From assembly GCF_006345805.1 (NCBI RefSeq), contig NC_042997.1, positions 145,824,001 through 145,888,000 on the forward strand: a stretch of 64,000 nucleotides of DNA, given 5' to 3'. Numbering within the stretch: position 1 is the first letter of the stretch; each line of letters begins with the position of its first letter. Of this stretch, positions 12,996 to 63,256 are shown piece after piece. The position numbers and the translations under genes were made by a program. The DNA is from Octopus sinensis. Taxonomy: Eukaryota. The notes beneath the pieces were generated by a model. That model made no database searches, had not been told where the DNA came from, and saw only the letters and a list, made by a program, of their open reading frames with translations.

Positions 12996-14806
12996 TATTA
13001 TGCAATGTACCCTCCCTATTTTTCAGACACCAGGTTGTGAGTTGAGATTTGGCTACTATTTCTTAATTTCGATTGATGTCGTACAGGCTCATTTCATGAC
13101 TCGAGTGGAATGGCGAAAATACAGCCTAAACAATGGATAAAACGTTCCTATAAATGCAAAATTTTATCCAACAAATTTTTTTAACATTAAATGCAATTAA
13201 CATCCAAACAATAATAAGCATTATAATTGTGCAGTGAGGAAAATATAGCACTAGCTCAAAAGCTACTGTTGTCTTAATCATTTAACCATATAAGTATTAC
13301 AAAGGCGGGTATGTTTTAATTATAAGCATAAACTTTACTGTTCTTAAGGAATTTGTGAGCTGAGTAATATAAAGTTAATATATAATATGGAAAAATAATG
13401 CTCCGATGATGAGGTCAAATAACACCGAAATCTATACAGAGTTGTTGCTCCTACTTCCTGGAATGATTAAACAAGATTGCCACTGAGCTAATCTTTCATT
13501 GCCTAATTACTATTTCTAATTAGATATTCGATACTTACTACCATAAAGATATCAACACAAACATAGTTTTTTTTTTTGTGTAGATACATAGATGATGTCT
13601 GTGAGAAAATATTGTTTGTGATTTGCCATTTAAAATGTTCTTACTCTTGCTTTAAACAATAGTAAATTCTGTCGATATTCTGATCGATAAAATAACTATA
13701 GACAATGTAACTTTTGAAAAAAATATACACATAGTTATATAAACACATACACAAAACACAATCATGAACGCAAACATATACATACATTACACTTCTTTAA
13801 AAACTTTTTTTGATCGAAGCAAAAAAAAACTAAGAAATGATACGCGTGCGAAGTAGTAGATTTACTAACGTAAGGATGCTGACTTTATCCTGATTTAGAA
13901 TAAATGATATAGTACGATACATAAGTCCACAGAATATTACTGATCGCTTTACGAAATATATCTAATTTATCAACTAGGATTAGTTTTTTTTTTAGTATAT
14001 TTTTTAAGCTATGTCTGTTGCCATTTACTTGGTTAGATAGAGGAACTGATAGCACGATGTTTTTTTACATCATGTTATATAATGATGTCCGGATGGCGGT
14101 TTGATAACAGCAAAATATATAGTGAAGTGCGTTGATAACAGTCACGTCTAGGAATGGTTGGTGATGATGGTGTGCGGGGTGATAGACAGATAACTAGATG
14201 TGTAAATGAAAGTCCGATAATACGATGTCTGTCTCATAACATTAAAACCAGTTATATTTTATTCGTGATAAAATACAAGACGAGGAGAGCAACAGCTGCC
14301 TGCCAGGTTCTGTTTGATTTATCTAGTCATGTAAACCGACACTATTATAGACACATAAAAAAAAAGAAACAGAACTAAAATTAATACAAAGATGTATAAA
14401 GTGCTTGATAATTAAATGAAATAAAACCTTGCTAATTGCACTAATTGCAACAAAAACATGGCATTATATAAATGCAGAAGAGAAACAGGAGTTGTTACGT
14501 GTTTAAGTTTTCCGATATAGTTATTTGTTAGTGGTTCGTGAGAAAAACATGTTAACATAGGAGTTCAGCAACTATATATGGATTATTTCAGCATGTCACC
14601 AGAGGAAGTATAATCTATTAAAAACAGTAGAATTTTAAAAATGGAAAAGTAGGTAGTTTCAGTAGTAGTTTTTTTGTTGTTGGTAGTACGTAGCCGTGAC
14701 TATCCTTCCCGAGACACATAATACATTTTGCTCCAGGTACAACATCGTTCAATTTGCCCTTCATTTTTAAGATTTTATATTGTAAATTAAACAGAGATTT
14801 GGCTGC

Positions 14807-15221
14807 ATACCTTTTTCGGTTTGAACGGCAGTTTTTCTAGTGGTGTCATATGAAATTGTCACCCATAATTATGACCCTAGTATCGATCTATTGCATTTCA
14901 ATCTGTTTTAGGTTAGGGTTAGGGGTGGGGGAAGGGTATCTTTTTTTCTTCACAAATGTAAATAAACCCAATCTGTTTCTTAAACGAGGGACATATTCAT
15001 ACGGCACAGAATGTTTTCACCTCAATAGACGGTCATTGATTGGTTGAAATTGCCGAAATGCAAGAAATTAAAGACCAAATATCTTACAAACTATAGAATA
15101 TTCTCAATAAAGCCAAGAGAAAAAGATGTTTTATAAACACATTCTACCAGTATACGAAGTTTAAAATTTTTTAGTTACCTAGAAATTATGTTAAAAACTG
15201 CCGTTCAAACCGAAAAGATCC
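14807..15221. mobile_element. MITE with ~25-bp TIRs and 8-bp TSD (Merlin-like by inference)
   Basis: TTTTCGGTTTGAACGGCAGTTTTT inverted at both ends; TSD ttggctgc at 14799-14806 and 15222-15229; internal TTAGGG run. Confidence 0.85.
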
Positions 15222-15863
15222 TTGGCTGCTATAGCACTCCTTATTGGCTCGCTGTTAAGTTTCATTGTAATTTTATACTGTATTATATGATCAATTAAGC
15301 CATACATCTAACAGTAATTATCCAGTATAAAACATTCTCTAAGTTGTTGCAGCCAAATCTCCCTGTAATCACACCTCACTGTCTTGAGAAAAGGAAGACC
15401 ATATTGGGCATTGTAGTTCTAGATATTAAATAAAAATAAGTTTTTGATCTAACGTTTCGATAAACAATAATATCAGCAAAAATCCAACAAGCATGAAATT
15501 TCTTAAAGATTTTGAGAAGTCAATGGCACTGTGAAATCTACCTAAGCATAAACATTCCTCGAGATAGGTGAAACATTTATCTGGGAATTACATAATCATG
15601 CAGAAAGGTTGTGAGAACTTTAGTAGTGATGTAATATTAGTTTATAAGTTTCACTCGAAAGAAATACCCAACTATGATGCTAAAGCGTCAATGATACGCT
15701 AATAAAAACAAAATGATACTGTTATAAAAACAACACTGATAAGAGCGGATTACAAGTAAACACTGTAATATGAAATGATAAAATTTTATTGTAAAATGAA
15801 ATCTACAATGATTTAGAACGGACTATTTTGTTGACATGTCTGAATTTTGTGCCGGAGATTTTC

Positions 15864-16224
15864 AGTTAGTTAGTTAGTTAGTTAGTTAGTTAGTTAATTT
15901 GGCTCAAAAGCAAATAGCAAGGCCATGTAGGGGGACATGGAGTTAAGTACAGAGTGGTGTTCATGTAAAGAGTTCAGGCCACTTGAGGTCAAGGGAGGCT
16001 TTGAACAAAGCGGTCGTCGGCATCTTCACCATCTCGTCTGGCAGCTTGTTCTACGGATCCGCAACCCGGACGGAGAAAGCTCCTCTCCTTCGATTGAGAT
16101 GAAATCGTCGCAGGTAGAGCTTTTCGGAATGACCCCGCAGCCGACGCTCTGGAGCAGGAGTGAAGAACAGCTCTTTCGAGGGGTTACACTTTCCGCTTAT
16201 GATGTTGTGGGCGAGAATGAGATC
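15864..16224 (-). mobile_element. CR1-clade LINE 3' fragment with (TAAC)n tail
   Basis: Translates DLI..LRGHSEKL..FSVRVADP*NKLP..FKASLD, typical of the CR1 ORF2 C-terminus. Confidence 0.88.
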
Positions 16225-16477
16225 AGAATCGTTAGAACATCGGACAAAATGTGTTACTGAGTTTAGCTGCGACACTTAACGTTATGAGTTCCAATTTCAT
16301 CGAAGTCAACGTTTCCTTTCATTTTTCATCGTCAATTAAGTAAAATGTTACTCATGCACAAGGGTAAATTTACTCTACTAAAAGCTGGCACCCAAAGTTA
16401 TTGTTTATTTCCCTGTCAGCCCTTATTGAGAAGCCCTGTAACCAACGACATTCTTGTCTTCTGTCACTCATAGTATT

Positions 16478-16878
16478 TTATTCTTTCACATGTTTCAGTC
16501 ATTTGACTGCGGCCATGCTGGAGCACCGCATTTAATCGAATCAAATCGACCCCAGGACTTATTCTTAGTAAGCCCAGTACTTATTCTACCGGTCTCTTTT
16601 GCCGAACCGCTAAGTTACGAGGACCTAAACAGACCAGCATCGGTTGTCAAGCGATGTTGACGGGACAAACACAGATACACAACATATACACACACATAAG
16701 TATATATATATATATACATATATACATATATACGACGGGCTTCTTTCAGTTTCCGTCTACCAAATCCACTCACAAGGCTTTAGTAGAAGACACTTGCCGA
16801 AGGTTCCACACAGTGGGACTGAACCCGGAACCATGTGGTTGGTAAACAAGCTACTTATCCCACAGCCACTCCTGCGCT
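16478..16878 (-). mobile_element. tRNA-SINE family B (CORE-like body, internal microsatellite)
   Basis: GGAGTGGCTGTG..GGTTCAGTCCC head and GGTGCTCCAGCATGGCCGCAGTC tail. Confidence 0.85.
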
Positions 16879-61344: not shown

Positions 61345-61382
61345 TCTTTAACGTTTCGAGCCTACGCTCTTCAACAGAAAGA
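61345..61382 (-). ncRNA. Minimal hammerhead motif, core variant CUGUUGA, in a Penelope-like piece (about 61245-61460)
   Basis: tcttt CTGTTGA a gagc-gtag-gctc GAAA cg TT aaaga; both stems perfect. Confidence 0.7.
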
Positions 61383-61834
61383 TACACAGAGAAAAAACAC
61401 AGAAAGAAGGAGAGAAAAAAAATATCCGTGCAGAGGCTAGCGAATCAACATGGCGATCATATATATATATATATATATATATATATATATATATGAGTCG
61501 ACAAATGTAAGAATAAGGCGCTCAACACAATTAGTAAGAGTTATCTGTTATATTATTTAAAACTTTTTCCTGCCCTGTATACATGTATGTGCAATATCTT
61601 AATCTAAACATTGCGAATGAATCTCAGAAGACGGAAATTCTGAGGACGCATTTCCAATGAGGAATACTTGTAAATCGAGGTGCCAGCTTCTTCCAACACC
61701 TAGCTGTTTACTCTATATCGAACAACTTAGACCTTCGCTGAAACCGACGAAGGTCAATGTACTCCGTTTTACATATACGCGCGCACAGAAGCTCGCATAA
61801 CGCTCAAACATATGCACACTCACTTCCACATAAA

Positions 61835-62365
61835 CATATACACATGTATAAGTTGTGTATATATATATATATATACATATGTATACATATATACATATAA
61901 ATATATATAATATATATATATATAAATATATATATATATGGATATGTATATATATATATTATATATATATATATTCACACACACACACACACACCACACA
62001 CACACACACACATATATATATATATATATATATATATATATATATATATATATATATATATATATATACATATGAATATATGTGTATGTATATGTAATGT
62101 GTGTATACATATAGTAATAATATAGTAATAATAGGTTCCCGTAAACGAACTTAAATACATATATATATAAATATATATGTATATATATGTTTATATGTAT
62201 AAATATGTAAGTATATATATATGTATATATGTATGTATATATATATATATATATATATATATATATATATATATATATATATTATATATATATATATATA
62301 TATATATATACATATATATATATATATATATATATTATGTATGTATGCATATATGTATGTATTCA
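61835..62365. repeat. Long (TA)n/(CA)n low-complexity tract, one of dozens in the window
   Basis: Directly visible. Confidence 0.95.
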
Positions 62366-63211
62366 TAGACAGATATACATTTATTTTTATCTCTCGCGCT
62401 CTCTACCACGATGTCTCCCTGACTCTCCCTCCTTTCTCTCTCCCCCTCACTCACTCTCTCCTCCTTCTCCCTCTCCTTCTGTCTCTCCTTCTGTCTGTCT
62501 GTCTCTCTCTCTCTCTCTCTCCACACACACACATATATACCATGAAACAAAGACCAGTCTTTCATGACTGGTTTTTGTTTTGTAATATTCATTTACTTAG
62601 TTGTTAACAAGCTTAAAAATCGATTATATCTTATACTTTAGTTGTTTTCTCTGTCGGTTATCGAGTCTGTCTAGAATAATGCCGCAATATAGATGTCTCG
62701 TTTATTTCGTCGAGATCTTTTGATCTTCTATTAAGATTAACAAATTCGTTTATTTTTAGTTTATAATGGGTTCTGACTAACAATCGACATAAATAAAATA
62801 TCTAAAAATCACCATTGAACTTATTAATGTACAATATTTTCAGACAATAATGTTCCATATTGTTTTCACCAAAGTCTTCTGCCTTGTTTTAGCACTTTCT
62901 ATATCCCACAAACAATACTTGAAGATTGAAATCTGCTTCGTAAAGACGAAGAAAGAATAGTATTTTCATCAGACGACTAATAATATATCATAGGTAGGAT
63001 CCTTGGAGCGGGCGACAGTGATATACATACATACATACATATATACATTCATGCATACAATATATATATATATATATATATATATATATAACAAAGTGGT
63101 GTTGTAGGGTACCGTACGAGTGGAATGTTATGTCCTTGTTACCAAAGACTGTATGTATGTAATGTTGCATTTTGTAACAACCAATAATTAATGCAACCAA
63201 ACTTCTACATG

Positions 63212-63256
63212 TTACTTTTGACAATCTTTTTCCAAAGAGTGAAACCGGTAAAGTAA
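63212..63256 (+). ncRNA. Decayed minimal hammerhead motif
   Basis: ttactt TTGACAA tcttt..aaagagt GAAA ccgg TA aagtaa, then AATAAA. Confidence 0.5.

What the first reader, a model, noticed from the sequence alone, without database searches (positions are those of the whole stretch)
13401..63256. About 10 Penelope-type minimal hammerhead motifs from unrelated families in 64 kb
Seen: motifs at 13401, 17794, 25813, 26431, 30327, 30446/30621, 45091, 60505, 61345 and 63212. Stems differ but the layout stemI-CUGANGA-stemII-GAAA-short, usually palindromic linker (cg, atcgat, catatg, ccgg)-UH-stemI is shared, often beside (TA)n. Known: Penelope-like elements and retrozymes carry such type I motifs, proposed to cleave as dimers. 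No PLE RT or GIY-YIG ORF is visible here. Inference: a large, diverse set of non-autonomous ribozyme retroelements missed by ORF annotation.
Basis: partly seen in the sequence, partly recalled or inferred. Interest (0 to 1): 0.75.

Follow-up and report, generated by a model that had tools for sequence, protein, structure and literature searches.

The report
Penelope retrotransposon tips carrying hammerhead motifs
Most of these hammerhead-ribozyme look-alikes are real repeats but decayed, the short tips of several jumping-gene families that encode their own copying enzymes elsewhere in the genome, so the class is known; one family also has a tRNA-like leader that likely acts as its promoter.

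Summary
Nine of the 11 listed motifs belong to 8 repeat families in G000; 13401 and 26431 have no relatives. Only 2 window copies keep an intact core. Five family majorities are canonical, one has the known U3-A8 covariant, and two carry a changed core base (U4C in most arms, A6U in all copies). The 'non-autonomous' inference mostly fails: long copies of 6 families carry Penelope-like RT and/or GIY-YIG coding sequence upstream in sense. The inserts are short pLTR-end copies with fixed 3' ends, TA-repeat targets, optional tails and two-armed inversions, as published for PLEs. Only 25813 is a ~300-nt ORF-less, retrozyme-like repeat. Motif density is above shuffles but not clearly above other parts of the genome. 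Copies almost never start at the cleavage site, so templates were likely uncleaved. Two extras: family 17794 has a tRNA-like A/B-box leader where short copies start (the scan noted this before on other DNA of this genome), and the 61345 lineage keeps U at core position 6 in 70 of 70 cores while position 7 varies. Verdict: new members of a known kind; cleavage untested.

The parts
17624..17697 (+). tRNA-like leader (A box and B box) of a Penelope/Poseidon-type PLE; in long copies it lies about 30 nt after the ORF stop
   Evidence: 27 of 30 loci found with the head alone carry the hammerhead tail 10-126 nt downstream; global alignment to genome tRNAs z up to 6.8, best tRNA-Arg(TCT), isotype not resolved; Rfam tRNA only 14.5 bits; ARAGORN 0 of 10 loci
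17695..17741 (+). (AAT)n spacer inside the element
17745..17889 (+). pLTR end of family 17794 with hammerhead 17794-17839; window core has A6G, family canonical in 22 of 24 copies; an ATG-initiated open frame runs through the motif in the family majority
25793..26041 (-). Part of a ~300-nt ORF-less, retrozyme-like unit; hammerhead 25814-25858 with intact core and ATCGAT linker
   Evidence: 8 of 30 loci hold two motifs 281-305 nt apart and most are longer than one unit; no sense PLE ORF in 55 loci
30186..30403 (.). Two-armed head-to-head insert in (TA)n: long arm 30186-30300 (-), short arm 30324-30403 (+) with hammerhead 30327-30364; family majority has U4C
   Evidence: C at position 4 in 27 of 46 parsed arms; EN and RT-like coding sequence upstream in long copies
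30412..30842 (.). Two-armed insert: arm 30412-30544 (-, short 3' end, hammerhead 30447-30530) and arm 30546-30842 (+, long 3' end, hammerhead 30621-30704); long stem II; both window cores mutated
   Evidence: canonical core in 11 of 23 copies; EN-like coding sequence about 0.8-1.3 kb upstream in L415 and L417
45052..45245 (+). Short pLTR-end copy between TA repeats; hammerhead 45091-45135, window core A9U, family canonical in 9 of 13
   Evidence: EN with Cys finger upstream in L327, L344, L347
60412..60592 (-). Old copy related to the 61345 family; hammerhead 60505-60540 with intact core
   Evidence: no linked ORF found
61247..61458 (-). Young short copy of a Neptune-type PLE between TA repeats; hammerhead 61345-61382 with family-fixed A6U
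   Evidence: 98% identical copies; 22 of 30 ORF-anchored loci have the motif 528-901 nt downstream, 21 with CUGUUGA; 1009-aa open frame with RVT_1 E 1.3e-7 and weak GIY-YIG
63130..63295 (+). Young short copy before (TA)n; hammerhead 63212-63256 with U3-A8 covariant core and a weak stem II closing pair
   Evidence: UUGACAA in 19 of 19 copies; RT and EN coding sequence upstream in L484/L563
13401..13441 (+). Orphan hammerhead-like match (C3A, weak stems); likely chance or an unrecognisable relic
   Evidence: 1 candidate, itself; no relative in 1.96 Mb of held loci; no TA array within 400 nt
26431..26468 (-). Orphan half-motif; first core strand largely missing; 84 nt from a TA array, so possibly an old relic

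Best explanation
The window holds eight short insertions from repeat families that carry a minimal type I hammerhead motif near a fixed 3' end; six families encode Penelope-like enzymes in longer copies elsewhere, and the short copies were likely made by those enzymes from likely uncleaved RNA. Inferred mechanism, from published PLE work: the GIY-YIG endonuclease nicks TA-rich DNA, and the RT starts inside the RNA at one of two sites downstream of the hammerhead, giving a short end or a tailed end. It copies back through the motif and stops either early or at a preferred 5' boundary, likely the RNA start in the pLTR. A second inverted arm is often added. The window copies have since decayed. 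Family 25813 is a non-coding ~300-nt tandem unit that likely borrows the same enzymes (retrozyme-like). The motif is predicted to cut weakly, as a dimer or with protein help, and is likely not needed for insertion.
For: Shown. Coding sequence upstream in sense: RT and EN for 61345, 17794 and 63212; EN and an RT-like frame for 30327; EN only for 45091 (phmmer E 7e-6 to the 61345 protein) and 30446 (the same EN type sits behind a PLE RT in L527). Fixed 3' ends abutting TA repeats with variable 5' ends. Two alternative 3' ends in 17794 (~33-nt tail), 30327 (~60 nt) and 30446 (~200 nt). Inverted upstream arm in 11 of 25 (17794), 12 of 28 (45091) and 8 of 25 (30446) loci. With queries downstream of the cleavage site, 5' ends fell within 10 nt of it in 1 of 29 (61345) and 0 of 27 (45091, 2 unmapped) copies, and clustered 104-125 nt (15 of 29) and 77-99 nt (10 of 27) upstream. 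Literature: single min-HHRs are widespread and probably from truncated PLEs, with weak dimer cleavage (PMC4209133); internal RT initiation, tails, protein-assisted HHR and uncleaved template (PMC11167929); inverted arms and TA targeting (PMC8557442).
Against: No RT was recovered in a 45091 or 30446 copy, and their EN fragments have no GIY-YIG Pfam match. No ORF was linked to 60505. Clade names rest on motifs, not a tree. Only the best 40 matches per search were scored, and sets were picked by likeness to the window copy. 5' clusters could come from RT pausing or AT microhomology with the target rather than an RNA start. No inverted arm was seen in 0 of 30 plus 0 of 30 loci of 61345. No cleavage or transcription start was measured.
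Confidence: 0.85

Rival explanations
1. One reading: the inserts are independent non-autonomous ribozyme retroelements (retrozymes) that self-cleave, circularise and borrow PLE enzymes.
For: True in layout for 25813: ~300-nt unit, more-than-unit copies, no ORF in 55 loci. Short copies far outnumber long ones in every family. Retrozymes derive from pLTRs (bioRxiv 10.64898/2026.07.22.740005).
Against: Six families run continuously into coding sequence. Short-period direct tandem copies are rare outside 25813. Copies do not start at the cleavage site.
Confidence: 0.12
2. In family 17794 the short head-to-tail unit is a self-sufficient Pol III SINE-like transcript made by dispersed short copies as well as by the coding master, so it amplifies partly on its own while using the PLE protein.
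For: A and B boxes with tRNA spacing. 17 of 40 tail-selected copies start within -13..+10 of the head start and only 1 runs on into the ORF. No T4 run from head to 3' end in the majority sequence.
Against: Other families without a tRNA-like head also show 5' clusters, and Penelope has an internal Pol II start in its pLTR (PMC8557442 passage). The T-run test is not significant (0 vs 0.39 expected in the head-tail, 0 vs 1.9 in 1043 nt of ORF, p 0.12), and the Neptune control is also T-run poor (2 vs about 5).
Confidence: 0.35
3. The motifs are chance matches in AT-rich, microsatellite-rich DNA.
For: Strict descriptor finds none; looser settings give 1-2 hits per shuffle. 13401 and 26431 have no family.
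Against: Nine motifs score 61-136 bits against family profiles built without the window copy. Family majorities restore core and stems with different stem sequences.
Confidence: 0.03

Closest known systems
Minimal hammerheads of metazoan Penelope-like elements (Cervera and De la Pena 2014, PMC4209133; parts 1-3 of 4 read, supplement searched)
   Same: Type I layout, short stem I, extra base after A9, absent or palindromic stem III, U3-A8 covariant, many families per genome, mostly single or opposite-strand copies, few inside full PLEs
   Different: Density here extrapolates to the order of 1e5 relaxed-descriptor motifs (rough, from 200 kb) vs about 4,000-9,000 in their richest genomes with a different descriptor; A6U is not among the variants in the text I read; no octopus entry in the one supplement file searched
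Poseidon PLE of Anolis, PAc (Frangieh et al. 2024, PMC11167929; parts 1-2 of 4 read)
   Same: C-terminal GIY-YIG, two 3' ends separated by a tail, AT-rich targets, ORF start overlapping the hammerhead (family 17794), uncleaved template
   Different: No tRNA-like leader reported there in the parts read; activity shown in vitro there, not here
Neptune and Nematis PLE clades (Craig et al. 2021, PMC8557442; passages read)
   Same: Cys-finger linker before GIY-YIG, (TA)n targeting, inverted 5'-truncated arm, pLTR with HHR
   Different: Clade placement here is by motif only; 'Nematis-type' for 30327 and 30446 is recalled, not tested
Metazoan non-LTR retrozymes (PMC7229834, passages; bioRxiv 10.64898/2026.07.22.740005, part 1 of 5 and passages)
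   Same: Family 25813: ~300-nt low-GC non-coding unit with type I HHR in partial tandems
   Different: Only monomers and partial dimers seen, no long arrays among 55 loci; circles and cleavage untested; minimal rather than canonical HHR
Schistosome SINE-like hammerhead retroposons (as reviewed in PMC6765202, passages read)
   Same: Pol III-type promoter followed by a hammerhead
   Different: There non-coding and tandem; here the tRNA-like module sits inside the pLTR of a coding PLE

Membership tests
EN+ Penelope-like elements | Single ORF with RT and C-terminal GIY-YIG endonuclease upstream of the pLTR | tested here: met
   Met for 61345, 17794, 63212 (RT+EN) and 30327 (RT-like+EN); EN only for 45091 and 30446
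EN+ Penelope-like elements | Linked ORF for family 60505 | tested here: inconclusive
   No sense ORF joined to the motif in 38 loci; sequence related to 61345
EN+ Penelope-like elements | Hammerhead motif in the pLTR near the 3' end | tested here: met
   22 of 30 ORF-anchored 61345 loci; majorities of all 8 families
EN+ Penelope-like elements | Optional 3' tail and inverted 5'-truncated arm | tested here: met
   Tails in 17794, 30327, 30446; inverted arms in 17794, 30327, 30446, 45091, 63212; none seen in 61345, 60505, 25813
EN+ Penelope-like elements | RT groups with PLE/telomerase RTs and with a named clade in a tree | not tested
   No reference PLE proteins on hand; names assigned by Cys-finger presence or absence per PMC8557442
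Minimal type I hammerhead ribozyme | CUGANGA (or U3-A8) and GAAA..UH core with stems I and II | tested here: met
   Met in majorities of 17794, 25813, 30446, 45091, 60505 and, as U3-A8, 63212
Minimal type I hammerhead ribozyme | Canonical core in families 61345 and 30327 | tested here: not met
   A6U in 29 of 29 and 70 of 70 related cores; U4C in 27 of 46 arms. They are hammerhead variants of unknown activity
Minimal type I hammerhead ribozyme | Site-specific self-cleavage, usually as a dimer | not testable with these tools
   Needs in vitro assay
Non-LTR retrozyme | Non-coding 150-450-nt unit with type I HHR in head-to-tail repeats (family 25813) | tested here: met
   8 of 30 loci with two motifs 281-305 nt apart; no ORF in 55 loci
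Non-LTR retrozyme | Non-coding tandem unit (families 17794, 30327, 30446, 45091, 61345, 63212) | tested here: not met
   Continuous with PLE coding sequence; short-period tandems rare
Non-LTR retrozyme | Abundant unit-length linear and circular RNA | not testable with these tools
   Only fragmented RNA-seq of a run added by species label was available
tRNA-derived SINE (family 17794 short unit) | tRNA-like head with A and B boxes at the 5' end of most copies | tested here: met
tRNA-derived SINE (family 17794 short unit) | Independent of a coding element at the master locus | tested here: not met
   Head is joined to the ORF end in long copies
tRNA-derived SINE (family 17794 short unit) | Transcribed by RNA polymerase III | tested here: inconclusive
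   5' clustering fits; T-run test not significant

The most novel reading that the evidence does not exclude
Family 17794 is a protein-coding Penelope element driven by a captured tRNA-type Pol III promoter placed just ahead of its ORF start and hammerhead, so one locus yields both the coding RNA and thousands of SINE-like hammerhead tips: a bridge between PLEs and schistosome-type ribozyme SINEs. Separately, the Neptune-type 61345 lineage holds U at core position 6 while position 7 drifts (70 of 70 cores: N7 = U 53, G 8, A 6, C 3), which would mean a selected variant core, either a new active hammerhead variant or a fold kept for protein binding rather than cutting.
Probability: 0.4. Interest if true: 0.7.

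Novelty: new member of a known kind. Interest (0 to 1): 0.35.

Why it matters
The finding as given is explained by 2014-2024 work on Penelope-like elements, so it mostly adds families. It matters modestly in three ways. The genome holds young, high-copy families with canonical, U3-A8, U4C and A6U cores, a natural panel for the open question of what the PLE hammerhead is for. The near absence of copies starting at the cleavage site supports, from genomic data, the in vitro result that uncleaved RNA is the template. If the tRNA-like leader is a working Pol III promoter for a coding retroelement, that would be unusual; I found no paper describing it in searches, but Lunse et al. 2017, Ohshima and Okada 1994 and Repbase entries could not be checked.

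Tried and rejected
Rfam scan of the window: only microsatellite-driven miRNA matches, no hammerhead among the 150 rows shown. ARAGORN on 10 head-bearing loci: none. Independent SINE with a PLE fragment inserted in its AAT tail: rejected, since 27 of 30 head-selected loci carry the tail and long copies join head to ORF. Cleavage-defined 5' ends: not seen. Local hotspot: not supported against 200 kb of background; that background is half of what was planned. Family profiles hit only 2 places in that background, but they were chosen from the window, so this is ascertainment. T-run depletion as a sign of Pol III: not significant. RNA: no RNA holder listed. Three RNA-seq runs added by species label gave reads on both strands following copy-number depth and no pile-up of ends on L257, and low depth on L508; uninformative either way. 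Walk upstream of 60505 found no linked ORF. Extra cores at 3310, 30094, 47065, 9157, 10622 and 31970 were looked at but not shown to be complete motifs. Lunse et al. 2017 on PLE hammerhead variants could not be read, so whether A6U is already in print is open; searches showed no such report. PMC3088659 passages report A6C (low activity), U4C (reduced in vitro) and U3-A8. One of two supplement files of PMC4209133 was not searchable. Rows dropped as duplicate views of one place: L087, L117, L121, L125, L173, L330, L334, L446, L469, L470; window copies were excluded from tallies. In one search, L047 (runs into the ORF) was binned by the script as tail-only and is counted by hand.
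Full report
Setting. The window is G000:C1:145824001-145888000 in a 2.72-Gb genome rich in TA/CA microsatellites. It is likely an octopus; this rests on recalled repeat types and on earlier scan notes, not on a test. The window holds no PLE coding sequence (tblastn).

Observation. All 11 sites show the claimed layout, but only 25814-25858 and 60505-60540 keep CUGANGA and GAAA. A strict descriptor finds 0 hits. Relaxed descriptors give 5 vs 0.33 and 6 vs 1.2 in shuffles. 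In 200 kb of arbitrary stretches the same descriptor gave 11 vs 3.25, including intact cores from other families. So the motifs are real and common, and this window is not clearly special. The excess extrapolates to roughly 1e5 per genome, a rough figure from a small sample.

Families. Genome searches returned families for 17794 (4305 first-look candidates), 45091 (2555), 30446/30621 (1728), 63212 (1569), 30327 (1552), 61345 (1427), 25813 (842) and 60505 (84). Only the best 40 were scored each time. 13401 and 26431 found only themselves. Canonical core plus GAAA was present in 22 of 24 (17794), 14 of 24 (25813), 11 of 23 (30446), 9 of 13 (45091), 7 of 19 (60505), 1 of 16 (30327), 0 of 19 (63212) and 0 of 29 (61345) copies. 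63212 has UUGACAA in 19 of 19, the U3-A8 covariant reported in PMC4209133 and PMC3088659. 30327 has C at position 4 in 27 of 46 arms; the T copies fit CpG decay (inference). 61345 has CUGUUGA in 29 of 29. This is not query bias: 21 of 22 ORF-anchored copies agree, and across all held loci position 6 is U in 70 of 70 related cores while position 7 takes all four bases.

What lies upstream. Walking into longer copies found coding sequence in sense for six families. 61345: RT, Cys finger and GIY-YIG, with open frames up to 1009 aa and 26,910 first-look candidates for the protein query. 17794: RT and a finger-less GIY-YIG. 63212: RT and EN, E 1e-29 to the 61345 protein. 30327: EN and an RT-like frame. 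45091 and 30446: EN fragments only, without a GIY-YIG Pfam match. By the finger rule in PMC8557442, 17794 is Penelope/Poseidon-type and 61345, 63212 and 45091 are Neptune-type; 'Nematis-type' for 30327 and 30446 is recalled. 60505 resembles 61345 but no ORF was linked. 25813 differs: a ~300-nt unit, copies longer than one unit, two motifs 281-305 nt apart in 8 of 30 loci, and no sense ORF in 55 loci. That is the retrozyme layout of PMC7229834.

Insertion anatomy. Copies end at fixed 3' positions against TA repeats, about 35-150 nt past the cleavage site. Three families have a second, longer end. Inverted upstream arms occur in 11 of 25, 12 of 28 and 8 of 25 loci of 17794, 45091 and 30446, and in 17 of 17 of 30327, where the palindromic query selects for them. 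In the window, 30186-30403 and 30412-30842 are each two-armed inserts with one long and one short end, side by side in one TA array. These match the tail and inversion features in PMC8557442 and PMC11167929.

5' ends. With queries lying downstream of the cleavage site, 1 of 29 (61345) and 0 of 27 (45091) copies began within 10 nt of it; ends clustered 104-125 nt (15 of 29) and 77-99 nt (10 of 27) upstream, and 18 of 28 copies of 30327 began 7-20 nt before the core. I read these as likely RNA starts in the pLTR and as uncleaved templates, in line with PMC11167929. RT pausing or AT microhomology is not excluded.

The tRNA-like leader. Upstream of motif 17794 lies a segment with A and B boxes (17624-17697) and an AAT spacer. 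It travels with the tail: 27 of 30 head-selected loci have the tail. It aligns to genome tRNAs at z up to 6.8 without a clear isotype. In long copies it sits about 30 nt after the ORF stop, and an ATG-initiated frame begins after it and runs through the hammerhead. Of 40 tail-selected copies, 17 start within -13..+10 of the head start, 8 inside the head, 14 lack a contiguous head and 1 runs into the ORF. A Pol III promoter is the simplest reading, but other families also show 5' clusters and my T-run test was not significant. I reached the head-in-PLE reading; the scan had noted it before on other DNA, and those notes prompted the ORF-start and T-run checks.

Mechanism. Shown: family membership, coding linkage, end positions, core states. 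From published PLE work and inferred here: EN nicking of TA-rich DNA, internal RT initiation at two sites, run-off or truncation, second-arm inversion, weak dimeric or protein-assisted cleavage. Untested: any cleavage, promoter class, circles.

Verdict. Real but mostly ordinary: new members of a known kind, interest 0.35. The residual novelty is the tRNA-like leader and the fixed A6U core. Papers seen: PMC4209133 (parts 1-3 of 4, one supplement file searched), PMC11167929 (parts 1-2 of 4), bioRxiv 2026.07.22.740005 (part 1 of 5 and passages), PMC13282606 (part 1 of 3), and passages of PMC8557442, PMC6765202, PMC7229834, PMC3088659, PMC6962438, PMC10886601.

Noticed in passing
window 6021-7685 (-) and 7995-8651 (-): 554-aa open frame with an RT motif and a C-terminal restriction-like endonuclease motif, plus a partial duplicate; looks like an R4/Dong-type LINE (name recalled)
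   Followed up: no
window 23212-23760 (-): 3' fragment of a CR1-like LINE ORF (name recalled)
   Followed up: no
window 34333-35028 (-) and 42276-42755 (-): Fragments resembling a piggyBac-like and a mariner-type transposase (names recalled)
   Followed up: no
window 45751-46332 (-): 193-aa frame with a CCHC zinc knuckle, like a LINE ORF1
   Followed up: no
window 9157 (-) and 10622 (-): Two related repeats with a one-mismatch core, GAAA and a hairpin linker; may be chance inside a SINE
   Followed up: no
window 3310 (-), 30094 (-), 47065 (-), 49109 (+), 56433 (-), 31006 (-): Intact CUGANGA strands without a demonstrated full hammerhead; 30094 lies next to the CT/TA array that holds two PLE inserts
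   Followed up: partly
window 30146-30842; L016, L069, L383, L420: Different PLE families land in the same TA array next to each other, which may make local clusters of motifs
   Followed up: partly
L541-L560 background stretches: Three intact-core hammerhead-like motifs with long stem II from families absent in the window, in 200 kb
   Followed up: no
window 43007-43123: Long hairpin formed by a two-armed repeat fragment
   Followed up: no
window 1022-1242; 831-1049, 11241-11470, 28774-29001 and others: 29-bp tandem array and many copies of abundant SINE-like repeats on both strands
   Followed up: no
L383, L490 (family 63212): Very long, internally repeated CA-rich 3' UTR (over 1.5 kb) between the ORF and the hammerhead
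   Followed up: partly
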